A stretch of DNA of 64,000 nucleotides from an uncultured Dehalococcoidia bacterium (GTDB taxonomy: Bacteria > Chloroflexota > Dehalococcoidia > Lucifugimonadales > UBA3495). The notes under the pieces were generated by a model, which saw only the letters and a list, made by a program, of their open reading frames with translations, made no database searches and was not told the origin of the DNA. A program made the position numbers and the translations under genes. Below, piece by piece: positions 3,381 to 63,569 of the stretch. The first letter of the stretch is position 1, and every line of letters begins with the position of its first letter. The stretch is from positions 136,065 through 200,064 of the forward strand of contig CATOSP010000001.1 in NCBI GenBank assembly GCA_951812625.1, in the 5' to 3' direction.

Positions 3381-4790
3381 TACTACAGTTGCAGATGTGA
3401 TAGGCGCGTTTTGTAGTGGCATTGTTTGGCTTGGGCTTGGTGGCGCCGTCTCCACCACGACCAGTACAGGATGAAATCGGGCAGTTGGCTTTCTGTCCAT
3501 ACCAGGCGTGTCAGCAGCCGTCGCACCTCGGGGACAGTCACGGGAATCAGCTCCTCACCGGGGCCGTAGTGACCCCCTTTTCTCCCTGTTCCGCCGCCTG
3601 ATTTCTGATCACCGCCAGATAGGCGTGGGCCAGCATCGCCAGCGTGATGTGCCGGTACCAGCCATCCCACCGCCGTACCTCGTACTGGTCCAGGCCCACC
3701 TGACCCTTGGCCTCCTCAAAACATTCCTCTATGGTCCAGCGTCTCCCGGCGACTCTCACCAGTTCCTCCAGGGCCGTTCCCGACGGGCCATAACAGACGT
3801 AATAGGCCAGTTCCTCCGGGTTGGCCACGCTACGGCGAGCCAGCAGCCAGTAGCCCTTGCCGGGTTCTCCCAGGGGCCGTATTTCCACCGCGGCCCAGTC
3901 GTAGACCCGGGGACCCTTGGCCCCGTCGCCGGCGCTGCACCTGACCCATTCCGATTCCGCGACCTGCGATGCCAGCCGGTCCGTCCTCACCTGTAGCGGT
4001 CCCCTGTCCGTCAAAGCCCACAGCTTCTCGTTGCTCTTTATGGCCATCACATGCGGAATCTCCTTGCGTTCCAGCCACAACCGCAGGTTGCGGTCGCTGC
4101 CGTAGACCTCGTCCCCGGTGAACCAGGCGAAGGGAACACCCGATTCCAGCGCCCGTTCCAGCATCACCTGAGCCTGCTCCGGTTTGGTCCGAAAGCGGAT
4201 GCTCTCCGGCACCCCGGCCTCGCGTCTGCGTGCCCAGTCATCAGCCCACACCCGGGGCAGGTACAACTCCCGGTCCAGCAGCGTCCTGCCCTTGGCCGAC
4301 GCATAGGCCAGGAATACCCCAATCTGAGAGTTCCCGGTCCGCCCCGCCGTGCCGCTGTACTGGCGCTGCACCCCAACCGATTTCTCCCCTTTCTTGATGA
4401 ATCCGGTCTCGTCCACCACCAGAACCGCATCTCCGTGGCCCAGATGTTCGATCACGTACTGCTTCAGATCATCCCGGACCAGGTCCGCGTCCCAGACGTA
4501 ACCGGACAGCAGGCGCTGCACCCCGTAGGGAGTGGAGTCGCCCGCACGCTCCGCCAGTTGCCAGCCGTTCTTGCGTTCCACCGGGCTGAGCAACCCCTTC
4601 AGATATTCCAGGGCCCGCCTGCGCGGCTCCGGCCGCCCGAACCTGCCTGCGATGCACTGGTGTACCCGCTCAATGCCCTCGGCCCACCGGGCGACCTCCG
4701 TTACCTCGTCTCTCCCAAGCACCACTGCCTCACCTCAACACTCCTTTGGTTCCCTGAAATTCTATCCCTTTTTGATCTGCAACTGTAGTG
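3381..4790 (-). mobile_element. IS701-family insertion sequence, copy 2 (complete)
   Basis: 1410 bp. Terminal inverted repeats TACTACAGTTGCAGAT (3381-3396) and ATCTGCAACTGTAGTG (4775-4790). Flanked by the direct repeat CTAG (3377-3380 and 4791-4794). Confidence 0.9.
3547..4725 (-). CDS. IS701-family DDE transposase
   Basis: 392 aa. Motifs [37 protein letters not shown] and WFTGDEVYG are characteristic of IS701/SRSO17-type transposases. Confidence 0.9.
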   Translation of the reverse strand: MVLGRDEVTEVARWAEGIERVHQCIAGRFGRPEPRRRALEYLKGLLSPVERKNGWQLAERAGDSTPYGVQRLLSGYVWDADLVRDDLKQYVIEHLGHGDAVLVVDETGFIKKGEKSVGVQRQYSGTAGRTGNSQIGVFLAYASAKGRTLLDRELYLPRVWADDWARRREAGVPESIRFRTKPEQAQVMLERALESGVPFAWFTGDEVYGSDRNLRLWLERKEIPHVMAIKSNEKLWALTDRGPLQVRTDRLASQVAESEWVRCSAGDGAKGPRVYDWAAVEIRPLGEPGKGYWLLARRSVANPEELAYYVCYGPSGTALEELVRVAGRRWTIEECFEEAKGQVGLDQYEVRRWDGWYRHITLAMLAHAYLAVIRNQAAEQGEKGVTTAPVRS

Positions 4791-18858: not shown

Positions 18859-20078
18859 GTATTCAGTCAAATCAAGAATGGCAGGGGTAGAGGCGACGGA
18901 GCTTCGTTCGCGCGTCCTTGGCGGTGAAACGCCAGTTAATGGCGGATGCCGTAGTGTTACGCTCTGACACGCAGGCGTCCACGGCAGTTCCCAGGCTCTC
19001 CTCGTCGGCGTTGCGTCCGCGCAGGCAGGCCCGGGCCAGCACGCTGAACTCGGTCTCCGCCATGTTCAGCCAACTCCCGTGCCTGGGCGTGTGATGGAAC
19101 TCCAGCCGCCTGGCGATGCGCCGGGCCTCCGGGGCCGGGAAGGTCTCGTACAGCGACGCCATCCGGTGAGTGTTCAGATTGTCCAATACCAGGCGGACCA
19201 CCGGAACGTCCGGGTAGGCCTCGTCCACCAGCCAGCGCATCTGATGAGCGAAGTCCTGCATGGTGCGCCGCTGGGTTATCTCCACATGGCGCCAGCCAGC
19301 CTTGGGCTCGCAGGTCAGGAACAGGTTGCGGGTGCCGGACCGCACGTATTCGTAGTCCTCGCGCCTGGGACGTCCGGGCCCGGCCGGCAGGGGAGCCCTG
19401 GTTTCCGCGAGCAGTTGGGTGGAGGTCTCGTCGAAGCAGACCACCGGCCTCTGGGGACCGTAAGGCTCAGCGTAGAGGTCCAGCACGTCCTCAATGGCCG
19501 CCACGAACTCCCCGCCTGCCCTGGGGATACACCACTGCTGCTTCCGCCACGGCTTGAGAGTGTTTTTTTTCAGGTGCAGCCGCACCGTCTCGTGGGACAA
19601 GGATGCCACCAGCCCCAACTCCACCGCCCTGCCAGCCAGGGCGCGGAGCGTCCAGTGGTCATGGCCCTCGGGGGCCGGACTGCAGGCCAGAGCTATCAGG
19701 TGAGCTTCGACCCGCTCGTCCACCTTCCGGTACGGGTTGGGCGGGTTGTGGCGCCGCAGCGCCTCCTCCAGTCCCTCCTCCACGTACCGGCGCTTGGCGC
19801 GGCGCACGGTCCGCTCCGACACGTCAAGGGCCGCGGCTACCTGGGGAGCGGTCCAACCCTCGTCGGTCTTGAGAAGTATGCGCGCCCGCGTGATGGCCTG
19901 GGCCGAGTTCCTGCCGGCCCGGATCATCCTCTTGAGCCGTCCCTTCTCCTGCACAGTTAGATGGACTGTGTAAACCTCCTGCACCATGGATGTCCCTCCC
20001 ACAACACAACTTCAGTCCAAAAGATAGCATCCAGGGCCAGAATGTGTACTACGTGACAATGCCGCTTTGACACAATAC
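18859..20078 (-). mobile_element. IS630-family insertion sequence
   Basis: Terminal inverted repeats GTATTCAGTCAAA (18859-18871) and TTTGACACAATAC (20066-20078). Flanked by a TA/TA duplication (18857-18858 and 20079-20080), as expected for IS630/Tc1. Confidence 0.85.
18872..19987 (-). CDS. IS630-family transposase
   Basis: ATG 19987 after GGGAGGG. An N-terminal HTH is followed by the DDE_3 part (VVCFDETS...LVLDNLNTHR...FHHTPRHGSWLNMAETEFSVL). Confidence 0.9.
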   Translation of the reverse strand: MVQEVYTVHLTVQEKGRLKRMIRAGRNSAQAITRARILLKTDEGWTAPQVAAALDVSERTVRRAKRRYVEEGLEEALRRHNPPNPYRKVDERVEAHLIALACSPAPEGHDHWTLRALAGRAVELGLVASLSHETVRLHLKKNTLKPWRKQQWCIPRAGGEFVAAIEDVLDLYAEPYGPQRPVVCFDETSTQLLAETRAPLPAGPGRPRREDYEYVRSGTRNLFLTCEPKAGWRHVEITQRRTMQDFAHQMRWLVDEAYPDVPVVRLVLDNLNTHRMASLYETFPAPEARRIARRLEFHHTPRHGSWLNMAETEFSVLARACLRGRNADEESLGTAVDACVSERNTTASAINWRFTAKDARTKLRRLYPCHS

Positions 20079-20436: not shown

Positions 20437-21846
20437 CACTACAGTTGCAGATGTGATAGGCGCGTTTTGTAGTGGCATTGTTTGGCTTGGGCTTGGTGGC
20501 GCCGTCTCCACCACGACCAGTACAGGATGAAATCGGGCGGTTGGCTTTCTGTCCATACCAGGCGTGTCAGCAGCCGTCGCACCTCGGGGACAGTCACGGG
20601 AATCAACTCCTCACCGGGGCCGTAGTGACCCCCTTTTCTCCCTGTTCCGCCGCCTGATTTCTGATTACCGCCAGATAGGCGTGGGCCAGCATCGCCAGCG
20701 TGATGTGCCGGTACCAGCCATCCCACCGCCGCACCTCGTACTGGTCCAGGCCTACCTGACCCTTGGCCTCCTCAAAACATTCCTCTATGGTCCAGCGCCT
20801 CCCGGCGACTCTGACCAGTTCCTCCAAGGCCGTTCCTGACGGGCCATAACAGACGTAATAGGCCAGTTCCTCCGGGTTGGCCACGCTACGGCGAGCCAGC
20901 AGCCAGTGGCCCTTGCCGGGTTCTCTCAGGGGCCGTATTTCCACGGCGGCCCAATCATAGACCCGGGGCCCCTTGGCCCCGTCGCCGGCGCTGCACCTGA
21001 CCCATTCCGATTCCTCAACCTGCGCGGCCAGCCGGTCCGCCCTCACCTGTAGCGGTCCCCTGTCCGTCAAAGCCCACAGCTTCTCGTTGCTCTTTATGGC
21101 CATCACATGCGGAATCTCCTCACGCTCCAGCCACAACCGCAGGTTGCGGTCGCTGCCGTAGACCTCGTCCCCGGTAAACCAGGCGAAGGGAACACCCGAT
21201 TCCAGCACCCGTTCCAGCATCACCTGAGCCTGCTGCGGTTTGGTCCGAAAGCGGATGCTCTCCGGCACCCCGGCCTCGCGTCTGCGTGCCCAGTCATCAG
21301 CCCACACCTGGGGCAGGTACAACTCCCGGTCCAGCAGCGTCCTGCCCTTGGCCGACGCATAGGCCAGGAATACCCCGATCTGAGAGTTTTCGGTCCGCCC
21401 CGCCGTGCCGCTGTACTGGCGCTGCACCCCAACCGATTTCTCCCCTTTCTTGATGAATCCGGTCTCGTCCACCACCAAAACCGCATCTCCGTGGCCCGGA
21501 TGTTCGATCACGTACTGCCTCAGATCATCCCGGACCAGGTCCGCGTCCCAGACGTAACCGGACAGCAGGCGCTGCACCCCGTAGGGAGTGGAGTCGCCCG
21601 CCTGCTCCGCCAGTTGCCAGCCGTTCTTGCGCTCCACCGGGCTGAGCAACCCCTTCAGATATTCCAGGGCCCGCCTGCGCGGCTCCGGCCGCCGGAACCT
21701 GCCTGCGATGCACTGGTGTACCCGCTCGATGCCCTCAGCCCACCGGGCGACCTCCGCCACCTCGTCTCTCCCAACCACCACTACGGCACCTCAACACTCC
21801 TTTGGTTCCCTGAAATTCTATCCCTTTTTGATCTGCAACTGTAGTA
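20437..21846 (-). mobile_element. IS701-family insertion sequence, copy 3 (complete)
   Basis: 1410 bp with the same termini as copy 2. Flanked by the direct repeat CTAA (20433-20436 and 21847-21850). It lies inside the ATPase coding sequence. Confidence 0.9.
20603..21781 (-). CDS. IS701-family DDE transposase
   Basis: 392 aa, colinear with 3547-4725 and showing scattered substitutions. Confidence 0.9.
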   Translation of the reverse strand: MVVGRDEVAEVARWAEGIERVHQCIAGRFRRPEPRRRALEYLKGLLSPVERKNGWQLAEQAGDSTPYGVQRLLSGYVWDADLVRDDLRQYVIEHPGHGDAVLVVDETGFIKKGEKSVGVQRQYSGTAGRTENSQIGVFLAYASAKGRTLLDRELYLPQVWADDWARRREAGVPESIRFRTKPQQAQVMLERVLESGVPFAWFTGDEVYGSDRNLRLWLEREEIPHVMAIKSNEKLWALTDRGPLQVRADRLAAQVEESEWVRCSAGDGAKGPRVYDWAAVEIRPLREPGKGHWLLARRSVANPEELAYYVCYGPSGTALEELVRVAGRRWTIEECFEEAKGQVGLDQYEVRRWDGWYRHITLAMLAHAYLAVIRNQAAEQGEKGVTTAPVRS

Positions 21847-30333: not shown

Positions 30334-31554
30334 TCAAGCCCTGTTCGAGACTCCATCATGTGTATTGGAAGCTAGAAATTCGGCCCAATCCTCCATCAAC
30401 GGCCGCCGAACCTCAAGAAGGTCAGTCCGGGCATACGCCTGCTCCGTCGAGTTGCCCAGGTTGTGGGCCAGCGCAGCCTCGCTGGGAAACCATGTGGCAC
30501 CGGGGTCCCTGGCCTCCATGCACCAGTTCTTGAAGCTGCTCCGGAACCCGTGGGGAACCGCCGATATCCCCAACCGGCGCAGCATCACCGTGTAGGCCAT
30601 ATCGGATAGCGCCTTGCCGCCTCTCGCCGCCGGGAACACCAGGCTTCCCTCCTGAGTGTCCAACTCCTTCGCCTGAGACAGGATATCCAGACACCGGCTG
30701 GACAGGGGGACACGGTGTTCCCTGCGGGCCTTCATCCGCTCCGCCGGAACGGTCCAGGTCGCCGACTCCAGGTCGACCTCCGGCCACGTCGCCAACCGCA
30801 CCTCACTCGACCGTGCGGCGGTCAGTACGAGAAATTCGAAGGAGAGTTTCGTCACCGGGTCGGCTGTGGACTCCCGTACCTGCTCCAGGGCCACCGCCAC
30901 TTCGCCATAGGGCAGGGCCGTGTGGTGGCTCTTCAGCCGGGAGGTCCGGGGCAGGACCCTGATGACGGCCTTTCCCGCGGGATTGTCCGGCCGCCAGCCC
31001 TGGGCGACGGTCCAGTCAAACACGGTCTCCAGGCGTTGCCGCACCCGGCTGGCCGTTTCCGGCTTGGTGGTCCAGATGGGGGTCAGAACGGCCAGGACAT
31101 CGCCGGTGGTGACCTCGTCCACCAGCTTTCGTCCAATGACCGGGTGGGCGTAGGTCCGGAGGGTGTTGGTCCACTGGGAAGCGTGCTTCGAGTTGGACCA
31201 GGTGGGCCGCCGCATCTCGATGACCTGCTTGGCGGCCTGGGCGAAGGTGGGAATTGCGGGTCTGCGGAGTTCCTCGGCGGCCTGGCGCCTCTCGGCCATG
31301 GGGTCCCGGCCCTGCCGGATGAGCCTCTGGTTCTCCGCGGCCAGGTCCCGGGCCTCGGCCAGGGAGACGGCGGGATAGCCCCCCAATCCCATGTTGCGGC
31401 GCTGTCCGGCGATGGTGACCCGCTGGACCCACCTCTTGGCCCCGGAGGCCTCGACCTTCAGGTTCAGGCCGTTGCCGTCTGAATACATGCCTGGCTTCGT
31501 GACGGTGCGGACCATCATGGCCGAGAGGGCCTGCTGCTTGCGGTCTCCGGGCAT
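30334..31554 (-). CDS. P4-type tyrosine integrase (DUF4102 arm-binding N-terminus)
   Basis: N-terminus KPGMYSDGNGLNLKVEASGAKRWVQRVTIAGQRRNMGLGGYPAVSLAEARD. Catalytic region LTAARSSEV...HGFRSSFKNW...AYAR. Alternative start at 31518. Confidence 0.85.
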   Translation of the reverse strand: MPGDRKQQALSAMMVRTVTKPGMYSDGNGLNLKVEASGAKRWVQRVTIAGQRRNMGLGGYPAVSLAEARDLAAENQRLIRQGRDPMAERRQAAEELRRPAIPTFAQAAKQVIEMRRPTWSNSKHASQWTNTLRTYAHPVIGRKLVDEVTTGDVLAVLTPIWTTKPETASRVRQRLETVFDWTVAQGWRPDNPAGKAVIRVLPRTSRLKSHHTALPYGEVAVALEQVRESTADPVTKLSFEFLVLTAARSSEVRLATWPEVDLESATWTVPAERMKARREHRVPLSSRCLDILSQAKELDTQEGSLVFPAARGGKALSDMAYTVMLRRLGISAVPHGFRSSFKNWCMEARDPGATWFPSEAALAHNLGNSTEQAYARTDLLEVRRPLMEDWAEFLASNTHDGVSNRA

Positions 31555-31716: not shown

Positions 31717-31805
31717 TGGCGGAGAGAGTGGGATTCGAACCCACGATACCCGGAGGGTATACCGGTTTTCGAGACCGGCGCTTTCGTCCGCTCAGCCATC
31801 TCTCC
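31717..31805 (-). tRNA. tRNA-Ser(CGA): tRNA-Ser (anticodon CGA), CCA encoded
   Basis: Reverse complement: GGAGAGA TG GCTGAGCGGACGAAAGCG CCGGT CTCGAAA ACCGG TATACCCTCCGGGTATC GTGGG TTCGAAT CCCAC TCTCTCC G CCA. All four stems pair, and the long variable arm is typical of class II tRNAs. Confidence 0.93.
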
Positions 31806-42480: not shown

Positions 42481-43251
42481 TCAGGGCGTGGGCGCAGGGT
42501 TCATTGTAGCCTGCAGTTCTTTGGCCTCTTCCAGCAGGCGCGACGCCAGTTCCACGCAAGCCATCGCGTCCTTCCCGTAGCCGTCCGAACCCATGTCGTC
42601 GGCGAACTCCTGGCTCAACGGAGCGCCTCCCACCATTATCTTTACCTGGTCCCGCATCCCCATTTCTTCGAACGCTTCGATGGTCTTCCCCATGTTGGGC
42701 ATGGTCGTGGTCAGCAGGGCCGACATGCCCAGCAATTGCGCGTCGTGCTCCATCACCGCGTCAATGAACTCCTCCGGCTTGGTATCCACGCCCAGGTCAT
42801 GGACGGTGAACCCCGCTCCGCGCAGCATCATGATGCAGAGGTTCTTGCCGATGTCGTGAAGGTCGCCCTTCACCGTTCCCATAATCACCGTACCCAGCGG
42901 CTCGACTCCCGACGCCGACAGTATCGGTTCGACGTGGGTCATCCCGGCCTTCATGGCTCGGGCCGCCACCAGCACCTCTGGGACAAAGATGATGTTGTCC
43001 CGGAACTTGATGCCCACCAGGGCCATGCCTGCAATCAGGCCATCGTCCAGAATGGTGTTGGCATCGAACCCGGATTCCAGGGCTTCCACGGTCAGCCGGT
43101 CAACTTCGTTATGGTCTCCGACAATCAGGTGGTAGGAAATCCGCTGCATCAGTGGGTCGGCGTTCTCGAACAGGCCTCGTATATGACCCCTCTCGGAAGG
43201 GTTGGCAATCAGGGCCAGTTCGGACTCCAGACCTTCATTAACTTCAGGCAT
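42481..43251 (-). CDS. Corrinoid (B12-binding) methyl-carrier protein, MtaC/MtbC-like
   Basis: The N-terminal helical cap is followed by a Rossmann B12 domain with DxHxxG (GDLHDIGKN), SALLTTT and MVGGAP. Confidence 0.85.
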   Translation of the reverse strand: MPEVNEGLESELALIANPSERGHIRGLFENADPLMQRISYHLIVGDHNEVDRLTVEALESGFDANTILDDGLIAGMALVGIKFRDNIIFVPEVLVAARAMKAGMTHVEPILSASGVEPLGTVIMGTVKGDLHDIGKNLCIMMLRGAGFTVHDLGVDTKPEEFIDAVMEHDAQLLGMSALLTTTMPNMGKTIEAFEEMGMRDQVKIMVGGAPLSQEFADDMGSDGYGKDAMACVELASRLLEEAKELQATMNPAPTP

Positions 43252-43412
43252 TCACCAAGTCTCTACTAAAGTAATTCCCGCTCTGATCAAACTGCGACGG
43301 GCATCACGGTCGCATCGCTGGAATTCTAACAGGCGCAACGCAGCCGCCTCAACAACCGTGACAGCCTCCCAAGCTCTCAGTAGTCTCTCCCTGAGGCCAG
43401 TCCCCCTCGACC

Positions 43413-43436
43413 GTCATTCCCACGAAGGCGGGAATC
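43413..43436. repeat. Short GTCATTCCC..GGGAATC hairpin (REP-like, type B)
   Basis: GTCATTCCCACGAAGGCGGGAATC is related to the longer copies at 60338-60382 and 61055-61102. Confidence 0.6.
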
Positions 43437-43519
43437 TACACGCACCGGGTACGAGGGATGTGACTCTGCAATGGCCCCAGTGGCTGCCCGGTGTTCTTCG
43501 GATTCAGTCCGTTTAGGGT

Positions 43520-44563
43520 TTACCCCCCGCCCTGCCTCTCGGCGCACCACGCCCTGACCGCGCGGGGAATCTCCATCAGGTTCTCCAGTTTGGTTGCCAG
43601 AGGCACGGCACACTCCGGGGCCACCATCTGCACCCCGGCGTCCAGGCATCGGAACACCTCATCGCGCACCTCCTCGGGACCGCGGGCATAGAGCGTCTGC
43701 GGGTTATTGATGTTGCCCACCAGTCCAATCCTGCCCGACACTGTATCCATCGCCGCCTGCGGGTCGTTCTTGGAATCAAAGTGGAACGATGCCATCCCTG
43801 TCTGCGCGATGTAGTCCATCCGGTCCAGGGTATTCCCGCAGATGTGCAGGATCAGGGGCACACGCAGCCGCTCCGCCATCTCCTGGTGAATATCAAGGAG
43901 GAACCGCCGGTAATAGTCCCCGCTCACCAGGTCCCCGGTGGCATGGTCCGGAAAGGTCAGCGCATCGGCCCCCGCTGCAATCTGGGCCTCCCCGAACAGC
44001 ACGGAAATCTCCTTGAGTTGGTTGAGACACCGCATCACCATGTCCGGGTCGTCGACTGTCATTATGAGGAAGCGCTCCACCCCGAAGACATGGTAGGCCA
44101 GGGTCCACGGCCCCATGGTCTTGCCGATGACCGCCACCCGGTCCCCGAACTCCGCCTTGAGCATCTCTATCGACTTGATGATGGTCTGGTTGTCGGGATG
44201 CTCCAGGAACCCCGATGGTATGTGCACATCCTCAGGCCCGCTCCAGATGGGGTTCTGCATCCGCACCGTGGGCCAGTTGTCCTTGTCCTCCCACTGCATC
44301 TCGCAGCCCAGTGCCGACGACTCCTGGATGATGGTGAAGTAGGGCATCACCGAGTCGAACCCAAGCTCGGTATGCCCCGTGGCCGCCAGCCGCGCCGCCA
44401 GCTCCGGGTCGCGGCAGGCCTGGGGAAAGGGCGCATCCACCAGGTCCATCAACTCCACCGTGGCCACGTTGGTGGGGTTCGCCACCGGAGGACGGTCCAC
44501 CGGCTTCATGGCCAGAGCATTCATAACCCGCTCCCGCGGAGTCATAGTTTCAGCAAAAGGCAT
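43520..44563 (-). CDS. Uroporphyrinogen-decarboxylase-family methyltransferase (MtaA/CmuA-like, methylcobamide-dependent)
   Basis: ATG 44563 after AGGAGG. UroD-fold length, with candidate Zn ligands in ILHICGN and APECAV. Confidence 0.75.
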   Translation of the reverse strand: MPFAETMTPRERVMNALAMKPVDRPPVANPTNVATVELMDLVDAPFPQACRDPELAARLAATGHTELGFDSVMPYFTIIQESSALGCEMQWEDKDNWPTVRMQNPIWSGPEDVHIPSGFLEHPDNQTIIKSIEMLKAEFGDRVAVIGKTMGPWTLAYHVFGVERFLIMTVDDPDMVMRCLNQLKEISVLFGEAQIAAGADALTFPDHATGDLVSGDYYRRFLLDIHQEMAERLRVPLILHICGNTLDRMDYIAQTGMASFHFDSKNDPQAAMDTVSGRIGLVGNINNPQTLYARGPEEVRDEVFRCLDAGVQMVAPECAVPLATKLENLMEIPRAVRAWCAERQGGG

Positions 44564-44579
44564 GATCAGCGCCTCCTGA

Positions 44580-44909
44580 CTATGGTTCGGCGTCAATGCG
44601 GACAACCTGCCCGCGCTGTACAGTCTCCAATGCACTCAGGATTCTTGGGACCAACGGCGCCAAATCCCTGATGCTGTTGGTCTTTGCCGCCAACACGACT
44701 ACCGCAACATCGGCTTCCGTTATGTCCTGGTCTCTGGGTATATCCTGGTCACAGGTTATCAAGGCGTCGAAGTCATCCCGGGCCCGATCAAGCATTTGGT
44801 CATCGGGCAAGCTGTCCCAGCTTAGATATCCGGAAGAAATAACCTCGTGGTATTGCAGCAAATAGGGCCGAAGGTCCCAGGTAATGTTCTTATCGAGCAG
44901 CAGGCGCAC
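44580..44909 (-). CDS. DUF5615-type PIN-like protein (putative toxin)
   Basis: 109 aa. MRLLLDKNI..., ALITCDQDI and VVVLAAKT fit the DUF5615/Mut7-C-like pattern. It overlaps the upstream DUF433 gene by 20 nt. Confidence 0.6.
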   Translation of the reverse strand: MRLLLDKNITWDLRPYLLQYHEVISSGYLSWDSLPDDQMLDRARDDFDALITCDQDIPRDQDITEADVAVVVLAAKTNSIRDLAPLVPRILSALETVQRGQVVRIDAEP

Positions 44910-45903
44910 AAGCCTCTCTCTCCAGGACCTCCCGCGCCAACCGCAAAATCGCCATCAACTGCTCTCTGCCTGCTCCAGAGAAGTTGTAGGAAAAGTCCTT
45001 CAAAGTGCAGGCATCCGCCAGATAGTCGAACAATATCCTTATCGGGAGACGAGTGCCCACGAACCTGGGTGCGCCGCTCACGTATCTGCGGTCGCTGCTT
45101 ACAACGCCGTTAGGCACTTCCCGATAGGCGTCCATCTCCAGAATTCTCCCGGATGTAACTATGGCATCATAAGTATCTTCCCGGAACACCGATGGATAGT
45201 CCCAATGGAAATCCTTCAGGCTTTTCACGTCGGCCAGGTAGTCAAACATGCGCTTCACCGGCACATCCGACCTCTGAAACACCAACGCGCCATTCGCAAT
45301 CTTCCGGTCGCGCTGTGTGATGCGCTGCGTCGTCTCCCGGGCTTGTCTCTCAATCTCGGCCAACGCCTGCTCCATGCTTACGGACGGGAATTTGTGCAGG
45401 AAGCCATACAGGTTCCAGTCCTCGTGCATGTAAATATGCAGTTCCTTGACGGGCACCTGCGTCCCGTTGAAGAGGGGCGTACCGCCCGAGATTTGCTGGC
45501 CTCCATTCACAACATCACCTATGGCCGCATTTCCTTCAATCAACTCCCACTCGTGTTCGATGTGCTTGGTGAAATTGTAGCCCGTTCCGCCACTCTTAAC
45601 ATCGGTCAGATATTGCGACGACTCGCTCGAGATCTCCAAGTCAATCATGTCCTTGTCCAGACGCTTCCTGAACACCCTAGCCGGTTCAGTAAATGTGTTT
45701 GCCTCGATTCTTAACCAAATAAGACCTTCTTGCCTCTCTTTGACAAGAAGCAAGTGCAGATCGTCTTTGAACTTCCTGGGGGTTACATTAAGCCACCAGA
45801 CGGCTTTCGAGGCATTTAAGTTCGCAAAGCTCGTATTCCGCCCATCCAACAACTTATGTCCCAAATGCTCATTGACTGTTGCTATCGCCGATTGTTTATC
45901 CAT
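44890..45903 (-). CDS. Protein with an unknown N-terminal domain plus three tandem DUF433-like repeats (putative antitoxin/regulator)
   Basis: 337 aa. The repeats are GGTPLFNGTQVPVKELHIYMHEDWNLYGFLHKFPSVSMEQA, NGALVFQRSDVPVKRMFDYLADVKSLKDFHWDYPSVFREDT and SGAPRFVGTRLPIRILFDYLADACTLKDFSYNFSGAGREQL. The gene has visibly lower GC than its neighbours. Confidence 0.65.
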   Translation of the reverse strand: MDKQSAIATVNEHLGHKLLDGRNTSFANLNASKAVWWLNVTPRKFKDDLHLLLVKERQEGLIWLRIEANTFTEPARVFRKRLDKDMIDLEISSESSQYLTDVKSGGTGYNFTKHIEHEWELIEGNAAIGDVVNGGQQISGGTPLFNGTQVPVKELHIYMHEDWNLYGFLHKFPSVSMEQALAEIERQARETTQRITQRDRKIANGALVFQRSDVPVKRMFDYLADVKSLKDFHWDYPSVFREDTYDAIVTSGRILEMDAYREVPNGVVSSDRRYVSGAPRFVGTRLPIRILFDYLADACTLKDFSYNFSGAGREQLMAILRLAREVLEREACAPAAR

Positions 45904-45914
45904 GTTACTTCCAC

Positions 45915-46583
45915 CTACGTCGGCGTAAACCCCAGCGTCCCCGTAGTCATCTGCCCCCGGAGGGCCTCCGCCTCCAGCATACTCTCCACGCTGCTCACGT
46001 TGCGCGAGTAGGGGAGCAGCAACCGCACCAGCCCATCGTGTCGCTGCCCGCAGGGAAACACCACCGAGGTATCTCCCTCCCGGTCCATCTCCCCATACCG
46101 CAGGAACCCCGCCACGATCATCCGCAGCCGAGCCGGAACGTTCGGCGCGTCCCCCTCGGCTGACACGTTGTAAACGTACCTATTCCCCGCCTCTTCACCC
46201 ATCACCACTATCGTCAGCCTCGTGCGGGTGTCCCGGATGGACATCTCGCCCTCGGGCGGCAGGTAGTCAGGACTCTTCCCCACCGCCTGGGCCACCAGGA
46301 ACTTGATCAAGCGCTGGTGGACGTACCCGCATGGGAACACCACCTGGTGATCCGTGCCGTCCACGGGAGCCAGCCCGCCGAGAGCCACCAGCTGGTCTCT
46401 GACCGTCCTCAGCCTGTCCCGGACACCCGGTTTGCCGCTGAAGCTCCACACCGTGAACACTCCGTCCCTGGCGTACAGGCCAACGCTGATCCCCTCGAAA
46501 TGGGCGTCCATCGGCACCAGTTCCACGCAGGCGCCGTACCGTTCCAGCACTTCCGAAACTCGCATTGCCGGGCCTGTAGTCAT
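45915..46583 (-). CDS. Hypothetical protein with an internal duplication (VVFPCG repeats)
   Basis: ATG 46583 after GGAG, or ATG 46565. Two halves of about 85 aa end in HQVVFPCGYVHQRLIKFLV and TSVVFPCGQRHDGLVRLLL. Confidence 0.55.
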   Translation of the reverse strand: MTTGPAMRVSEVLERYGACVELVPMDAHFEGISVGLYARDGVFTVWSFSGKPGVRDRLRTVRDQLVALGGLAPVDGTDHQVVFPCGYVHQRLIKFLVAQAVGKSPDYLPPEGEMSIRDTRTRLTIVVMGEEAGNRYVYNVSAEGDAPNVPARLRMIVAGFLRYGEMDREGDTSVVFPCGQRHDGLVRLLLPYSRNVSSVESMLEAEALRGQMTTGTLGFTPT

Positions 46584-46683
46584 ATCAACGCGACTCCATT
46601 CGGTGACTACTGCAAATCTGACCGGATAACCTGAAGGAAGAGATGTCCATTGGGTCGCTCGGTGACAAGGGATCCGTAGAAAG

Positions 46684-47601
46684 TCAGCCGGAACCGGGGG
46701 ATACGCCGTGCGCCCCGACCGCCGCCACCAGCGCCCGGACGTGGTCCGGCCCGGTGCCGCAGCATCCACCAAGGATGTTGATCCCCAGGTCCGCCAAAGC
46801 CTTGAACCGCTCCGCCATGTATTCTGGCGACTCAGGGTACACAATCACGCCGCCCTGGTAGGCTGGGATACCCGCATTGGAGTGGACCAGCAGCGGCCCG
46901 TCCGTCGCCTCCCGCATCTCCCGCGCCAGTTCCACCATCACGTCGATCCCGTTGCCGCAGTTCGCCCCCGTAACGTCCGCTCCGGATGCAGCCAATTCCT
47001 TGACCGCCCGCTCCGGTGTTACCCCCATCATCGTGAAGAACCCTCGCGGCCCCCGGTCAAACACCATCGTGGCCATCACCGCCAGCTTCGTGTGGCTCTT
47101 CGCCGCCTCGACCGCCAGTGCCGCTTCCTCAACCGCCGACATGGTCTCGATAACCACCGCGTCCGCGCCACCCTCCTCCAACGCCACAACCTGTTCCGCG
47201 AAAGCGTCCAGCATCTCCTCCCGGCTCACCGGCCCCAGCGGTTCCAGGAACTCTCCCGTGGGACCCACCGACCCGACAACGAATTGCCCCGGTCCGGCCT
47301 GGCTGCGGGCATACTGCGCTGCCAGCCGGTTGAATTCCGCCACCTTGCCTTCATGACCGTACTTCTTCAGCATGAACCTGTTCGCGCCGAAGGAGTTGGT
47401 CAGCGCCATATCGGAACCGGCGCCAAAGTAGGCCGCTGCCATCCCTCTGACCACGTCAGGGTGGCTGGAATTGAACTCCTCCGGGCACGCCCCCGGCTCC
47501 AGACCGTGGCCCTGGAGATACGTCCCGGTTGCGCCGTCGGAAATCAGCAATTCCCCGGCGGCGATCCTGTCCAGCAGCGACGATGCGTTCCCAGTGATCA
47601 T
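46684..47601 (-). CDS. Homocysteine S-methyltransferase-domain protein (MetH N-terminal/BHMT-like)
   Basis: DGATGT, TNSFGANRF, GANCG and GGCCGTGPDHV (zinc-binding cysteines). Confidence 0.85.
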   Translation of the reverse strand: MITGNASSLLDRIAAGELLISDGATGTYLQGHGLEPGACPEEFNSSHPDVVRGMAAAYFGAGSDMALTNSFGANRFMLKKYGHEGKVAEFNRLAAQYARSQAGPGQFVVGSVGPTGEFLEPLGPVSREEMLDAFAEQVVALEEGGADAVVIETMSAVEEAALAVEAAKSHTKLAVMATMVFDRGPRGFFTMMGVTPERAVKELAASGADVTGANCGNGIDVMVELAREMREATDGPLLVHSNAGIPAYQGGVIVYPESPEYMAERFKALADLGINILGGCCGTGPDHVRALVAAVGAHGVSPGSG

Positions 47602-59057: not shown

Positions 59058-60197
59058 ATGGCTAAGCGCCTTTTTAAGGAACTGGAAAGGGCCTACGGAT
59101 TCGACGAAGTGGCAATAGTTCCCGGCCAGGTCACCATCAACCCCGACATGACCTCCACCAAGATGACCCTCGGCCACCACAGCTTCGACATCCCCGTCCT
59201 TGCCTCCGCCATGGACGGTGCGGTGTCCCCCAGCTTCGCCACCCTGATGCACCAGATGGGCGGCCTTGGAGTCCTCAACGCCGAGGGCCTCTACACCCGC
59301 TACGAAGACCCCTACTCAGTCCTGGAAGAGATCATCTCCATGCCCCAGGCCGAGGCCACGGGCTACCTCCAGCAGGTGTACTCCGAGCCGATTCAGGAGC
59401 ACCTCGTCGGCGAGCGCGTCCAGGAGATTCGCAAGTCCGGCTCCACCTGCGCCGTCTCCTTCACTCCCCAGAACACCAAGCGCATGTCCCCCGTTGCCGT
59501 CGAGGCCGGGGCCGACATCGTCGTCGTTCAGTCCACCGTCACCACCGCGCGCCACATGTCCCGCAGCTACCGCGGCCTCATCTTCTCCGAGCTCATTGAC
59601 ACGCTGAAGGTCCCCGTCGTCGTCGGCAACTGCGTCACCTACGAGGTGGCCCAGGAACTCATGGAGACCGGCATCGACGGCATCCTCGTCGGCGTCGGAC
59701 CCGGTGCCGCCTGCACCACCCGCGAGGTCGTCGGCGTCGGCGTCCCCCAGGTCACCGCAACCCTCGAATGTGCCGCCGCCCGCGAGGACTACTTCCGCCG
59801 CACCGGGCGCTACGTCAGCGTCATCACCGACGGCGGACTCCGCACCGGCGGCGACATCTGCAAGGCCATCGTCAGCGGGGCCGACGGCGTCATGCTCGGC
59901 ACCCCCTTCGCTCAGGCCGCCGAGGCCCCCGGGCGCGGCTTCAACTGGGGCATGGCCAACCCCCACCCCGAGCTTCCCCGTGGCACCCGCATCGGAGTCG
60001 GCACCAAGGGAACCCTCAGCCAGATCCTCTACGGCCCGACCTCCGTCACCGACGGCACCCAGAACTTCGTCGGCGCTCTCAAGGTGGCAATGGGGATGTG
60101 CGGCGCGTACACCATCCGCGACCTCCACAAGGCCGACATGATCATCGCCCCCGCCATCAAGACCGAGGGCAAATACTTCCAGTTCGCCGGCGCCTGA
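59058..60197 (+). CDS. GuaB3-type IMP-dehydrogenase-related protein (no CBS pair)
   Basis: 379 aa with [37 protein letters not shown] and [16 protein letters not shown]. Confidence 0.8.
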
Positions 60198-60261: not shown

Positions 60262-60382
60262 CATCTCCCCCTTTCGCAAAAGGGGGACTGAGGGGGATTT
60301 CTCTCCACAGCCACCACCAATCCCACACCCAAAACGCCATTCCCGCGAAGCGTGTCCCCGCCAAGACGGGGAGCGGGAATCC
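60262..60382. repeat. Composite REP-like hairpin pair (type A at 60262-60306, type B at 60338-60382)
   Basis: Type A: TCCCCCTTTCGCAAAAGGGGGACTGAGGGGGATTTCTCTCC. Type B: CATTCCCGCGAAG...GAGCGGGAATCC. The same pair recurs at 60976-61102. Confidence 0.8.
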
Positions 60383-60408
60383 ACTGGCGCCGATACAAGG
60401 AGGAAACC

Positions 60409-60945
60409 ATGCCAGACACTATCCAGATTCTCGACCCCTCCGCCGAGGACATCCCCGAGGAGAAGGGTCTGAATGCCAACCTCCCCAGCCTGCGCGGCAA
60501 GACCATCGGCCTCCTCGAAAACCGCAAGTACCACGCCGACTCCTTCCTCCATGAGCTGAAGGAAGTCCTCGTCAACGACTATGGCGCGGACAAAGTCATC
60601 TACGCCACCAAGTTCAGCTACAGCGCCCCCTGCGCCACCGAGACCCTCGAATCCCTGGCCCAGGAGTGCGACGTGGTTATCCACGGCGTCGCGGATTGAG
60701 GGTCCTGCACGACGTGGGGTCTCCACGACACAGTTATCACCGAGACTAAGGGAACGCCCTCCCTCAGCGTAATCACCAGCTCCTTCACCCGCGCCGCCCA
60801 CGCCCGCACCACAACCCTCGGAATGCCCGGCGCGCGCATAGTCGTAATCCCCAGCCCCCTCGCCACCCGCTCGGTCGCGGACGTCCAGCAGATGGCCCAC
60901 GACTTCGCCCCCGAAATAGTGAGCCTCCTCACCGGCCAGCCATAA
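60409..60945 (+). CDS. UGSC-motif selenoprotein (in-frame UGA = Sec at 60697-60699)
   Basis: ATG after AAGGAGG. The ORF reads ...VVIHGVAD-TGA-GSCTTWGLHD... and then stays open for 81 more codons with the same strong C-ending codon bias, ending at TAA 60943-60945. A SECIS-like hairpin follows the UGA. Confidence 0.75.
60705..60733 (+). promoter_or_regulatory. Bacterial SECIS-like stem-loop
   Basis: CUGCACGACGUGG-GGUCU-CCACGACACAG. The apical 5-bp stem (CGUGG/CCACG) is extended by G60711-C60729 and CUG/CAG. The GGUCU loop puts G and U at +23/+24 from the U of UGA. Confidence 0.65.
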
Positions 60946-60975: not shown

Positions 60976-61102
60976 TCCATCTCCCCCTTTTGCGAAAGGG
61001 GGACTAAGGGGGATTTCTCTCCTAACCGGCAGAGAGTCCACCCGCCGTAAATCGTCATTCCCGCGAAACGCCTGCCCTCGACCTGATCGGAGGCGGGAAT
61101 CC
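60976..61102. repeat. Composite REP-like hairpin pair, second copy (type A at 60976-61022, type B at 61055-61102)
   Basis: Near-identical type A core (CCCCCTTTTGCGAAAGGGGGACTAAGGGGGATTTCTCTCC) and type B ends (CATTCCCGCGAAA...GGCGGGAATCC). Confidence 0.8.
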
Positions 61103-61137
61103 ATTCCCCTATGGGCACAAGGAGCGCAAACCACCCA

Positions 61138-61503
61138 ATGCAGCAAGCCCAGACCTACCAGGAACGCAGCCGGGAATACCTCAGCAAAGCCTTCCAGGAA
61201 CTGGAGGCCGGAGACCTCACCCAGGCCTCAGAAAAGGGGTGGGGCGCAGCCGCCCAGATGGTCAAGGCCGTTGCCCAGCACAGGGGAATGGAGCACCACT
61301 CCCACCGTTCCATCCTCTTGGTCGCGCAGCACATCGAGCAAAACATCGGCGGTGACGCCGCAACCCAGTTCGCATTCGCCGAACAACTGCACCGGAACTT
61401 TTACGAAGATACGCTAGACCGCGCTGGCGTGACCATGCGGCTGCAGCAGGTCTTAAGTTTCGTCGACTCTCTGGACAGACTGCTGCCAGACGTGGACCAA
61501 TAG
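61138..61503 (+). CDS. PaREP1/HEPN-like protein, paralogue a
   Basis: Start at ATG 61138 (MQQAQTYQERSREYL), 13 nt after AAGGAG. ASEKGWGAAAQMVKA, HHSHRS and LHRNFYED match my recollection of the PaREP1 family. Confidence 0.6.
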   Translation: MQQAQTYQERSREYLSKAFQELEAGDLTQASEKGWGAAAQMVKAVAQHRGMEHHSHRSILLVAQHIEQNIGGDAATQFAFAEQLHRNFYEDTLDRAGVTMRLQQVLSFVDSLDRLLPDVDQ

Positions 61504-61533: not shown

Positions 61534-61890
61534 ATGCAGCAAGCCCGGACCTACCGCGAACGCAGCCGCGAATACCTCAGCAAAGCTTTCCAGGAACTGG
61601 AGGCCGGAGACCTCACCCAGGCCTCAGAAAAGGGCTGGGGCGCAGCCGCCCAGATGGTCAAGGCCGTCGCCGACGAAAGGGGCCTTGACCACCGGTCTCA
61701 TCGGGCTATCCTCATCGCAGCGCAGCAGTTGTCACGGGAAACCGGCGGCCACGATATGGACATGCAACTCTCTATAGCGCGTGACCTCCACACCAACTTT
61801 TATGAGGACATACTGGACCGCGAAGAAGTTCAATGGAGGCTCCAGCGCGTGGAGCAGTTCGTGAACAGGGTCGAGGGCCTGTTACACTAG
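61534..61890 (+). CDS. PaREP1/HEPN-like protein, paralogue b
   Basis: MQQARTYRERSREYL... has the same RBS spacing. The first ~135 nt are nearly identical to paralogue a and the rest is diverged. Confidence 0.6.
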   Translation: MQQARTYRERSREYLSKAFQELEAGDLTQASEKGWGAAAQMVKAVADERGLDHRSHRAILIAAQQLSRETGGHDMDMQLSIARDLHTNFYEDILDREEVQWRLQRVEQFVNRVEGLLH

Positions 61891-61937: not shown

Positions 61938-63569
61938 ATGCCCAACACCCTCTACTACGGCGACAACCTCCAGGTCCTCCGCGACCACGTCCCCTCCGCG
62001 TCCGTCGACCTCGTCTACCTCGACCCGCCCTTCAACTCCAACGCCTCCTACAACGTCCTCTTCCGAGAGCGCACCGGCGAGGAATCCCCAGCCCAGATCA
62101 AGGCCTTCACCGACACCTGGGAATGGACCCAGGAGACCGAGTACACCTTCGAGGTTGACATCATCCAGAACCCCGCCGTCCCCTCCGCGGTCAAGGAAAT
62201 GATCACCGCCTTCCGCCAGTTCATCGGACGCAACGCCATGATGGCCTACCTCGTGATGATGGCTCCCCGTCTCGTCGAGCTCCACCGCGTCCTCAAACCC
62301 ACCGGCAGCCTCTACCTCCACTGCGACCCCACAGCAAGCCACTACTTGAAGACTCTATTGGATACTGTGTTCGGGGCACGAAATTTTCGGAACGAGATTG
62401 TCTGGCCCAGAACGAACGCACATCACGATGCCAAGCGCTATGGCCGCATACATGATGTGATCTTTTACTACTCCAAGTCGCGCACAACCGTTTGGAATAC
62501 CATCTACACCCCATATACCTCCGAGCAGATTGACGAGCATTACTCCCATGTTGAGGAAGACACTGGAAGGCACTTTAGATTAAGCGATGTGAGTGCTCAA
62601 AAGCCGGGTGGTGATGTTGAGTACGAGTGGAATGGAGTGTATCCGCCGAGGGGTAGGTATTGGGCTTACTCCAGAGCAAACATGGAAGTGTTTGAGCAGG
62701 AGGGGCGTCTATACTACACGAGGAACGGACGCCCATTTCTCAAGCGATACTTGGACGAGATGCTGGGCAATCCAGTCCAAGACGTCTGGCAAGATGTTCC
62801 TTTCATACACGGGTCGTCCGTGGAACTTCTTGGGTATAAGACCCAAAAGCCCGAGGCCCTGCTGGAGCGCATCATCTCCGCATCCTCAAACGAAGGCGAC
62901 GTAGTCCTCGACCCCTTCTGCGGCTGCGGCACGGCGGTGGCGGCGGCGCAGAAGCTGGGACGCAACTGGCTCGGCATCGACATTACCCACCTCGCCGTCG
63001 CCCTGATGAAGAACCGCCTCAAGACCGCCTTCGACCTAGACCCCGTCCAGGACTACGACGTGGTCGGCGAACCCCAGGACGAGGGCAGCGCCCGCGCCCT
63101 CTGGCAGCAGGACCCCTACCAGTTCCAGTTCTGGGCCGTCTCCCTGCTCGAAGCCCAGCCCCAGTCCGAGCAGCGCCGCGGCGCAGACCGGGGCATCGAC
63201 GGCCTCCTCTACTTCATCGACGGCCCCAAGCGCACAACCCGGAAGATCGTCGTCCAGGTCAAGGGCGGCCGCGTCGAAGTGTCCCAGGTCCGCGACCTCA
63301 TCGGCGTCGTGGAGCGCGAAAAAGCCGCAATGGGCCTCTTCATCTCCCTCGACCCTCCAACCGCACCCATGCGCACCGAAGCTAACGGCGGCGGTTTCTT
63401 CCACTCCGACCTCTGGCAGCGCGACTACCCCAAAATCCAGCTGCGCACCATCGGCGAAATGCTCTCCGGCAACAACTTCGACCTCCCCCCGCGCCCCGCC
63501 GCCTACCAGCCCGCCCAGCGGGTCCGCCAGTCCCAGGGCCAACAGGCCACCCTCCCCGAAACCGCCTGA
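61938..63569 (+). CDS. Beta-class N6-adenine/N4-cytosine DNA methyltransferase fused to a C-terminal Mrr-like restriction-endonuclease domain
   Basis: DPPF (motif IV) precedes [10 protein letters not shown] (motif I). The C-terminal FQFWAVSLL...[12 protein letters not shown]...IVVQVKGG...GLFISL is PD-(D/E)xK/Mrr-like. Confidence 0.8.

What the first reader, a model, noticed from the sequence alone, without database searches (positions are those of the whole stretch)
60409..60945. Unannotated selenoprotein: in-frame UGA in a U-G-S-C motif with a canonically spaced SECIS hairpin
The ORF track ends this gene at TGA 60697-60699. The same frame then continues for 81 further codons without a stop, keeping the same extreme C-ending codon usage, until TAA 60943-60945. 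The TGA sits in ..HGVAD-U-GSCTTW.., which is the UGSC-type redox motif of a (seleno)protein family I recall from NCBI family models.

Immediately downstream is the hairpin CUGCACGACGUGG-GGUCU-CCACGACACAG. Its loop places G and U at +23/+24 from the UGA. As far as I remember, this is the geometry of the E. coli fdhF SECIS (loop GGUC).

This implies the organism has Sec-decoding machinery (selA, selB, selC, selD) elsewhere in its genome.
Basis: partly seen in the sequence, partly recalled or inferred. Interest (0 to 1): 0.7.

Follow-up and report, generated by a model that had tools for sequence, protein, structure and literature searches.

The report
UGSC-family selenoprotein gene in SAR202
This is a real selenocysteine-encoding gene whose in-frame UGA was read as a stop, but it belongs to a selenoprotein family (UGSC) catalogued in 2008, so it is an annotation gap rather than a discovery.

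Summary
The ORF from ATG 60409 ends at TGA 60697-99, and the frame stays open for 81 more codons to TAA 60943-45. The read-through protein matches NCBIfam NF041046 'UGSC family (seleno)protein' (139 bits, cutoff 125) and Pfam PF24696 end to end.

In 80 of 80 related loci (Dehalococcoidia/SAR202 MAGs) the aligned codon is TGA, never TAA or TAG. A conserved frame of about 80 codons follows it. Full-length relatives have Cys at that column.

The apical hairpin after the UGA is under RNA-level selection. Of 93 conserved degenerate codon columns, only five use one codon in all 81 sequences, and all five lie at -1 and +7 to +10. Nucleotides 22-26 (GGUCU) match E. coli fdhF at the same distance from UGA.

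Sec machinery could not be checked because the genome is out of reach. The family is one of the most abundant marine selenoproteins and its function is unknown.

Side observation: the gene sits in a conserved module with a GuaB3-type IMPDH-like gene (76/80 loci) and an uncharacterised 357-aa gene (72/80 loci). Interest is low to moderate.

The parts
60397..60404 (+). Ribosome-binding site AAGGAGGA, 4 nt before the ATG
   Evidence: Read directly from the sequence. The same AGGAGGAAACCATG context is present in the closest relative L001.
60409..60696 (+). UGSC gene, N-terminal part (96 codons, MPDT...HGVAD)
   Evidence: More than 120 public roughly 99-aa gene calls match only this half and stop at the same place. 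Most family representatives at 50% clustering also end at query residue 96.
60697..60699 (+). In-frame UGA read as selenocysteine (the U of U-G-S-C)
   Evidence: TGA in 80/80 related loci, while the terminal stops of the same genes are TAG 44, TAA 27 and TGA 9. Cys is at this column in full-length forms P0348, P0263, P0273 and P0238. The preceding Asp codon is GAT in all sequences.
60700..60942 (+). UGSC gene, C-terminal part (81 codons, GSCTTW...LTGQP)
   Evidence: 94 separately called ORFs carrying PF24696 match it at 64-95% identity. tblastn matches in 80 loci run through query residues 1-177. NF041046 and PF24696 cover both halves.
60943..60945 (+). True stop codon TAA
60713..60727 (+). 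SECIS core: apical stem C17-G21 / C27-G31 with loop G22 G23 U24 C25 U26
   Evidence: Stem pairs form in 76/76 distinct sequences; the one change, C17 to U, still pairs as U-G. Nucleotides 18-33 (60714-60729) are invariant in 81 sequences. Codons GGT, CTC, CAC and GAC are single-codon columns although GGT and CTC are minority codons elsewhere in the gene. GGUCU is identical to fdhF at nt 22-26.
60705..60733 (+).
   Evidence: Basal pairs are kept at 95%, but they lie on protein-constrained Ser-Cys codons and a freely varying Thr third position. G15-C33 is unpaired in 25/76 sequences. There are no compensatory changes. This part is not shown to be selected.
59058..60197 (+). GuaB3-family IMP-dehydrogenase-related gene, conserved upstream neighbour
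   Evidence: TIGR01304 at 436 bits, cutoff 342, and Pfam IMPDH. It lies directly upstream on the same strand in 76/80 loci, while other neighbours are shared by at most 8 loci.

Best explanation
Window 60409-60945 (+) is one gene for a 178-residue selenoprotein of the UGSC family. Translation does not stop at UGA 60697-99. A SelB-type elongation factor carrying Sec-tRNA(Sec) is inferred to bind the small hairpin that starts 14 nt after the UGA: a 5-bp stem with loop GGUCU, placing G23 and U24 at the same distance as in E. coli fdhF. It then inserts selenocysteine.

The Sec forms a U-G-S-C redox pair with the Cys three residues on. In the model this pair sits at the end of a beta-strand and the N-terminus of a helix, in the middle of a single flavodoxin-like alpha/beta domain. 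The protein is therefore most likely a small selenol/thiol oxidoreductase.

Shown here: family membership, Cys/Sec equivalence, conservation of the UGA and of the downstream frame, and RNA-level constraint on the apical hairpin. Inferred: SelB binding, actual selenium insertion, and redox chemistry. The physiological substrate is unknown. Conserved neighbours (a GuaB3-like gene upstream, and in most relatives a 357-aa gene downstream that is fused to UGSC in some organisms) suggest it serves those proteins.
For: - Family: NF041046 at 139.2 bits against a cutoff of 125, covering profile positions 2-147 of 147. PF24696 at 163 bits, covering 1-171 of 172.
- UGA column: TGA in 80/80 loci with an open frame of 79-88 codons after it. 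Terminal stops of the same genes are a TAG/TAA/TGA mix.
- C-terminal half: conserved at 64-95% identity in 94 separately called ORFs. One MAG has adjacent split calls IH962_06655 and IH962_06650.
- Cys forms: DCGSC at the same column.
- RNA constraint: of 93 conserved degenerate codon columns, only 5 use one codon in all 81 sequences. All five lie at -1 and +7 to +10. Median entropy of the rest is 1.39 bits.
- Hairpin: nucleotides 18-33 are invariant. The apical stem pairs in 76/76 sequences.
- fdhF: GGUCU at nt 22-26 is identical to E. coli fdhF.
- Genetic code: TGA is a normal stop for 15 of 39 window genes, so the code is not reassigned.
- One domain: the AF2 model (pLDDT 84.5, pTM 0.76) puts the motif between strand 106-112 and helix 115-130 of a single domain, so a split there would cut the domain in two.
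- Literature: UGSC-containing proteins numbered 255 Sec forms against 21 Cys forms in GOS (PMC2398784).
Against: - No selA, selB, selD or tRNA-Sec was found in the window or in the 80 locus flanks.
- The hairpin's folding energy is no better than shuffled sequence, and RNAfold prefers a competing helix in the 40-nt context.
- No Rfam family matched.
- There is no compensatory covariation, because the core never varies. Its structure is therefore inferred from invariance plus pairing potential.
- The invariant bases also encode conserved residues W-G-L-H-D. Only the third-position argument separates RNA constraint from protein constraint.
- There is no experimental evidence for Se incorporation in this lineage.
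Confidence: 0.9

Rival explanations
1. The TGA is a genuine stop. The locus is two genes or a split gene: a 96-aa protein, and a separately translated protein of about 60-80 aa from the downstream frame.
For: Public gene callers produce exactly this. There are roughly 99-aa N-terminal calls and 57-118-aa C-terminal calls from internal ATG/GTG/TTG codons. The ORF listing shows an ATG ORF at 60823-60945.
Against: - The stop is TGA in 80/80 loci, whereas true terminal stops of the same gene interchange among TAG, TAA and TGA.
- The frame never shifts between the halves.
- Residues directly after the TGA (GSCT.WGLHD) are the most conserved of the whole protein, and they lie upstream of any internal start.
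- Cys-containing relatives are single polypeptides.
- The predicted domain would be cut through its centre.
Confidence: 0.03
2. The UGA is recoded, but not as selenocysteine. It could be read through by a near-cognate tRNA as Trp or Cys, or by a SelB-like system delivering Cys, in a lineage that lacks selenophosphate-dependent Sec synthesis.
For: No Sec-synthesis or Sec-decoding gene could be shown for this genome. Cys at this position is functional in relatives.
Against: - The family is an established selenoprotein family, with Sec forms far outnumbering Cys forms.
- The hairpin carries the same GGUCU loop at the same spacing as the SelB-binding element of fdhF, and it is under strong purifying selection.
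- If Cys were intended, a TGA-to-TGC/TGT change is a single step. It is seen in none of the 80 loci.
Confidence: 0.05
3. The gene is a decaying pseudogene, and the hairpin is a chance feature of GC-rich coding sequence.
For: Single-sequence folding is unremarkable. The gene is bracketed by a strain-specific 125-nt repeat insertion.
Against: Both halves are under purifying selection across 80 genomes at 67-94% protein identity. Synonymous divergence is abundant everywhere except the hairpin. The RBS and start codon are intact.
Confidence: 0.01

Closest known systems
UGSC-containing selenoprotein family (NCBIfam NF041046, Pfam PF24696; described from the Sargasso Sea and GOS metagenomes)
   Same: Matches both curated models end to end and above cutoff. 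It has the U-G-S-C motif with Sec at the first position, a Cys-form minority, a size of about 180 aa, and marine-microbe provenance.
   Different: Nothing of substance. This is a SAR202/Dehalococcoidia orthologue. In this lineage it is paired with a GuaB3-like gene, a link I did not see mentioned in the papers read. The predicted fold is flavodoxin-like, not the 'likely Trx-like fold' suggested in PMC2398784.
E. coli fdhF SECIS (SelB-binding hairpin directly 3' of UGA)
   Same: The hairpin is inside the coding region directly after the UGA. Nucleotides 22-26 counted from the U of UGA are GGUCU in both, so G23 and U24 fall in the apical loop.
   Different: - The apical loop is 5 nt here (G21-C27 closes it), against 4 nt in fdhF (A21-U26 closes it).
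- There is no bulged U17. An A/G16-A32 mismatch sits below the 5-bp stem instead.
- The long lower helix of fdhF has no clearly selected counterpart.
- The rest of the sequence is unrelated.
UGSC/'Unknown_1' fusion proteins (GOS paper, Figure S1A)
   Same: P0359 fuses a domain of about 360 aa to a UGSC domain that again stops at the Sec codon. A free-standing homologue of that domain (43% identity, E 1e-89) lies next to UGSC in proteobacterial-type Cys-form loci and in 72/80 SAR202 loci.
   Different: In this window, and in its closest relatives L001 and L002, that partner is not adjacent. PaREP1 and methylase genes, or a semialdehyde dehydrogenase, follow the UGSC gene instead.
CxxC/UxxC thiol-selenol oxidoreductases of the thioredoxin fold
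   Same: A U-x-x-C pair at a strand-to-helix junction, which is the usual position of a redox-active dithiol.
   Different: The model has a five-strand parallel alpha/beta topology. Its best PDB matches are lumazine synthases and FMN reductases (TM 0.4-0.55), with no thioredoxin among the top 50.

Membership tests
NCBIfam NF041046 UGSC family (seleno)protein | HMM score at or above the curated cutoff (125 bits) with full-length coverage | tested here: met
   139.2 bits, E 9.6e-41, profile positions 2-147 of 147, with Cys substituted for the UGA.
NCBIfam NF041046 UGSC family (seleno)protein | U/C-G-S-C motif with Sec or Cys at the first position | tested here: met
   ..HGVAD-U-GSCTTW.. in the window. 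DCGSC in Cys forms at the same alignment column.
Pfam PF24696 UGSC | Score above the gathering threshold (25 bits) | tested here: met
   163 bits, covering profile positions 1-171 of 172.
Bacterial selenoprotein gene (Sec recoding of UGA) | In-frame UGA aligned with Cys in homologues and conserved as UGA among orthologues | tested here: met
   TGA in 80/80 loci. Cys in P0348, P0263, P0273 and P0238.
Bacterial selenoprotein gene (Sec recoding of UGA) | Protein-level conservation continues downstream of the UGA in the same frame | tested here: met
   The family models cover both halves.
Bacterial selenoprotein gene (Sec recoding of UGA) | Stem-loop shortly 3' of the UGA with a conserved G (and U) in the apical loop | tested here: met
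   5-bp stem plus GGUCU loop at nt 17-31. It is invariant in 81 sequences, with zero synonymous variation. bSECISearch itself was not available.
Bacterial selenoprotein gene (Sec recoding of UGA) | selA, selB, selC (tRNA-Sec) and selD present in the same genome | not testable with these tools
   None in the 64-kb window or in about 0.9 Mb of relatives' flanks.
Bacterial selenoprotein gene (Sec recoding of UGA) | Selenium actually incorporated | not testable with these tools
   Needs 75Se labelling or mass spectrometry.
E. coli fdhF-type SECIS | G23 and U24 in the apical loop at fixed distance from UGA | tested here: met
   GGUCU at nt 22-26 in both. The fdhF sequence was verified against 5,419 E. 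coli genomes.
E. coli fdhF-type SECIS | Bulged U17 below the apical stem (feature taken from my own knowledge of the fdhF literature) | tested here: not met
   Position 17 is a paired C. Below the stem there is an A/G16-A32 mismatch, not a bulged U.
E. coli fdhF-type SECIS | Extended lower helix, giving an element of about 40 nt | tested here: inconclusive
   Basal pairs 9-11/35-37 are kept at 95% but sit on protein-constrained codons. G15-C33 fails in 25/76 sequences. There are no compensatory changes.
Rfam SECIS families | Match to a curated covariance model | tested here: not met
   No SECIS family hit even at E up to 10 on 60600-60800.
Thioredoxin-fold oxidoreductases | Thioredoxin fold | tested here: not met
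   The AF2 model of Cys-form P0348 is a five-strand flavodoxin-like alpha/beta domain. There is no thioredoxin in the top 50 Foldseek PDB matches.

The most novel reading that the evidence does not exclude
In SAR202/Dehalococcoidia the UGSC selenoprotein would be the redox component of a conserved three-gene module: a GuaB3-type IMPDH-related protein, the UGSC protein, and an uncharacterised 357-aa protein with invariant Cys residues. The 357-aa protein is fused to UGSC in other organisms. If these proteins act together, the module would give a first functional handle on three orphan families at once. It would also identify SAR202 as a major source of one of the ocean's most abundant selenoproteins, whose genes are systematically split in public MAG annotations.
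Probability: 0.3. Interest if true: 0.45.

Novelty: new member of a known kind. Interest (0 to 1): 0.25.

Why it matters
For the biology of recoding it adds little. The family, its motif and its Sec/Cys dichotomy were already described in the 2008 GOS survey and have curated models.

Its practical value is for annotation. In this lineage, hundreds of public gene calls split the gene into two 'hypothetical proteins' at the UGA. A selenoprotein that is abundant in the ocean is therefore undercounted, and SAR202's use of selenium goes unrecorded.

The comparative data also give an unusually clean example of a minimal SECIS defined purely by synonymous-site invariance. The conserved GuaB3-like / UGSC / 357-aa gene neighbourhood is a concrete, testable lead to the unknown function of the UGSC family.

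Tried and rejected
- **Rfam.** A gathering-threshold scan of the whole window, then an E-value scan (up to 10) of 60600-60800, found no SECIS family, only noise hits.
- **Thermodynamic significance of the hairpin.** It is not better than shuffles at 71, 40 or 19 nt. I dropped folding energy as evidence and used synonymous-site analysis instead.
- **Covariation.** None is possible because the core is invariant.
- **tRNA-Sec.** ARAGORN found none in the window or the 80 loci.
- **sel genes.** tblastn with E. coli SelA, SelB and SelD against the window and loci gave no hit.
- **Literature on Sec use in SAR202/Chloroflexi.** Nothing specific turned up.
- **First motif regex for the Sec column.** It was too strict and missed 63 loci. 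I replaced it with tblastn-anchored mapping.
- **The 357-aa partner.** It has no Pfam or NCBIfam hit and no meaningful PDB sequence hit.
- **Is the partner related to the GuaB3-like protein?** No.
- **In-frame stop in the L064 partner.** It is just the terminal TAG.
- **Source contig of the window.** Only a 4.3-kb near-identical scaffold was returned.
- **Reassigned genetic code.** Rejected, because TGA ends 15 of 39 window genes.

Full report
**What is in the sequence**

On the + strand an ATG at 60409, four bases after AAGGAGGA, opens a frame that reaches TGA at 60697-60699 after 96 codons. The same frame then runs for 81 more sense codons to TAA at 60943-60945. Codon bias is the same on both sides, with GC3 of 0.80 before and 0.84 after. 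The peptide around the TGA reads VVIHGVAD-*-GSCTTWGLHD. A crude filter for TGA codons with coding-like sequence on both sides found only this one candidate in the whole 64-kb window.

**Family membership**

With Cys substituted for the TGA, the 178-residue product matches two curated models end to end:

- NCBIfam NF041046 'UGSC family (seleno)protein': 139.2 bits against a curated cutoff of 125, covering profile positions 2-147 of 147.
- Pfam PF24696 'UGSC': 163 bits, covering positions 1-171 of 172.

The literature describes 'UGSC-containing protein' as one of the most abundant selenoprotein families in the Global Ocean Sampling data. It had 255 Sec forms against 21 Cys forms, a UxxC motif and no known function (PMC2398784). 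A 2026 review lists it under NF041046 (PMC13188914). The kind of thing is therefore already known.

**Is the UGA really decoded?**

- A search with the read-through protein returned, as its best 120 hits, proteins of about 99 aa from Chloroflexi/SAR202. They cover only the N-terminal half.
- A search with the 81 residues after the UGA returned 94 separately called ORFs of 57-118 aa. They carry PF24696 and are 64-95% identical.
- One MAG has the two halves as adjacent 'hypothetical proteins', IH962_06655 and IH962_06650, on one 3,890-bp contig.
- An exhaustive search of 1.84 billion cluster representatives with the N-terminal half showed the same pattern at 30-45% identity. Most family members end exactly at the residue before the UGA. 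A few proteins of 164-215 aa continue.
- Those longer proteins have Cys at that column: HGVAD-C-GSCITWGLHDS in P0348, GTAD-C-GSCTTW in P0263, YGD-C-GSCTSW in P0273. The window's two halves align onto them without a gap.
- A scan of one genome per species found 164 relatives and kept 80 loci, nearly all Dehalococcoidia/SAR202 MAGs. tblastn matches in these run across query residues 1-177.
- In all 80 loci the codon at the Sec column is TGA, followed by 79-88 open codons. The terminal stops of the same genes are TAG 44, TAA 27 and TGA 9.
- TGA is an ordinary stop for 15 of 39 other genes in the window, so the code is not reassigned.

**The hairpin**

Counting the U of UGA as 1, the sequence can form these pairs:

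- Basal pairs: C9-G37, U10-A36, G11-C35.
- An isolated pair: G15-C33.
- A perfect apical stem: C17-G21 with C27-G31, closing the loop G22 G23 U24 C25 U26.

I checked the fdhF comparison against real sequence. The 46-nt fdhF element I recalled matches fdhF at 100% in 5,419 E. coli genomes. Its nucleotides 22-26 are also GGUCU.

Taken alone, the hairpin is not statistically remarkable:

- Folding energies are within one standard deviation of dinucleotide shuffles.
- RNAfold prefers a competing helix in the 40-nt context.
- No Rfam model matches.

The decisive evidence is comparative:

- In an ungapped alignment of 81 sequences, nucleotides 18-33 (60714-60729) are invariant.
- Across the gene there are 93 codon columns with a conserved, degenerate amino acid. 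Their median codon entropy is 1.39 bits.
- Only five columns use a single codon in every sequence. They are Asp GAT at -1, and Gly GGT, Leu CTC, His CAC and Asp GAC at +7 to +10.
- GGT and CTC are minority codons for Gly and Leu elsewhere in the same gene.
- The third base of codon +5 is also always G.
- The apical stem pairs in 76 of 76 distinct sequences. The single substitution, C17 to U, preserves pairing as U-G.
- G15-C33 is unpaired in 25 of 76 sequences. The basal pairs rest on protein-constrained Ser-Cys codons and show no compensatory change.

The selected element is therefore the 5-bp apical stem, the GGUCU loop, the two bases A32 and C33, and the base before the UGA. Because the core never varies there is no covariation. 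The structure is inferred from invariance plus pairing potential.

**Sec machinery**

The window holds one tRNA, tRNA-Ser(CGA) at 31717-31805. ARAGORN found no tRNA-Sec in the window or the 80 loci. tblastn with E. coli SelA, SelB and SelD found nothing in the window or in about 0.9 Mb of flanks. The source genome could not be retrieved; only a 4.3-kb near-identical scaffold was returned. This refutation criterion therefore remains untested. Conservation of UGA in 80 of 80 loci is strong indirect evidence that the lineage decodes it.

**Fold and likely chemistry**

An AlphaFold2 model of the closest Cys form (P0348, with an alignment of 34 sequences) has mean pLDDT 84.5 and pTM 0.76. It shows a single alpha/beta domain with five strands. 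The Sec-equivalent Cys114 and Cys117 lie between strand 106-112 and helix 115-130. Foldseek against the PDB gives only weak matches to flavodoxin-like proteins such as lumazine synthases and FMN reductases (E about 3e-4, TM 0.4-0.55). No thioredoxin appears in the top 50. The position of the U-x-x-C pair fits a redox role. The published guess of a Trx-like fold is not supported by this model. The motif sits in the middle of one domain, which argues against two separate proteins.

**Surroundings**

- Upstream, on the same strand, is a GuaB3-family IMP-dehydrogenase-related gene at 59058-60197 (TIGR01304 at 436 bits, cutoff 342).
- That gene is the immediate upstream neighbour in 76 of 80 loci. 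Every other window neighbour is shared by at most 8 loci.
- In Cys-form loci from other bacteria, UGSC is followed after about 10 nt by a 357-aa gene with no Pfam or NCBIfam match.
- That 357-aa gene is 43% identical (E 1e-89) to the N-terminal domain of P0359, a 460-aa fusion whose UGSC part again stops at the Sec codon. It is likely the 'UGSC/Unknown_1' fusion reported in the GOS paper.
- The same 357-aa gene lies downstream of UGSC in 72 of the 80 SAR202 loci.
- It is absent from the window and from its closest relatives L001 and L002.
- In the window, the downstream space holds two PaREP1-family genes and a DNA methylase with an Mrr-like domain.
- The partner family has invariant Cys83 and Cys181 and no detectable relative in PDB sequences. 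Its structure could not be predicted here.

**Verdict**

It is, however, a new member of a known and curated selenoprotein family, missed by ordinary gene calling. Confidence that this is a Sec-decoded UGSC gene with a minimal SECIS is about 0.9. The remaining doubt rests on the untested Sec machinery. The interest lies mainly in two things: the scale of the annotation gap in SAR202 genomes, and the conserved gene module as a lead to function.

Noticed in passing
window 59058-60197 (+), and L001-L080 just upstream of each UGSC gene: A GuaB3-family IMPDH-related gene (TIGR01304) is the immediate same-strand upstream neighbour of the UGSC gene in 76/80 loci. All other neighbours vary. This is a selectively conserved gene pair that I did not see mentioned in the papers read.
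   Followed up: partly
L083:6599-7669, L087:6594-7664, and downstream of UGSC in 72/80 loci (e.g. L047:6690-7724): An uncharacterised 357-aa protein family (motifs GWTDGLPVVPPT and NAVMAGC; invariant Cys83 and Cys181; no Pfam, NCBIfam or PDB match) is adjacent to UGSC across phyla and is fused to it in P0359. It is missing next to the window's gene and in L001 and L002.
   Followed up: partly
window 60262-60383 and 60978-61103: A composite element of about 125 nt is directly repeated 716-720 nt apart, bracketing the UGSC gene. Each copy has a TCCCCCTTT..AAAGGGGGA hairpin and an ATTCCCGC...GCGGGAAT hairpin, and each ends just before a ribosome-binding site. It is absent from all 80 relatives and present only in the near-identical scaffold L088, so it is a recent strain-specific insertion, possibly a MITE- or REP-like element.
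   Followed up: partly
window 61111-61503, 61534-61890, 61938-63569 (+): Two tandem PaREP1-family genes (a family named for archaea), followed by a DNA methylase fused to an Mrr/restriction-endonuclease-like domain. They occupy the place where most relatives have the UGSC partner gene and look like an inserted defence or mobile cassette.
   Followed up: no
window 3547-4725 (-) and 20603-21781 (-): Two near-identical DDE_5 transposase genes (392 aa each) lie about 17 kb apart and may delimit a composite transposon. Another transposase-like ORF lies at 18872-20002.
   Followed up: no
window 30334-31554 (-) and 31717-31805 (-): A phage-type integrase gene (Arm-DNA-binding, Phage_int_M and Phage_integrase domains) lies about 160 nt from tRNA-Ser(CGA). 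This is the classic signature of an integrated element at a tRNA gene.
   Followed up: no
window 42481-47601: A corrinoid-dependent methyltransferase set: a B12-binding protein (42481-43251), a URO-D/MtaA-like methyltransferase (43520-44635) and a homocysteine S-methyltransferase-family protein (46684-47601).
   Followed up: no
L001 and L043 (MAG S34_277); L060 and L063 (MAG NORP26): Some SAR202 genomes carry two UGSC loci on different contigs. The S34_277 copies are 94% and 68% identical to the window protein. Both copies of each pair have TGA and the same invariant hairpin.
   Followed up: no
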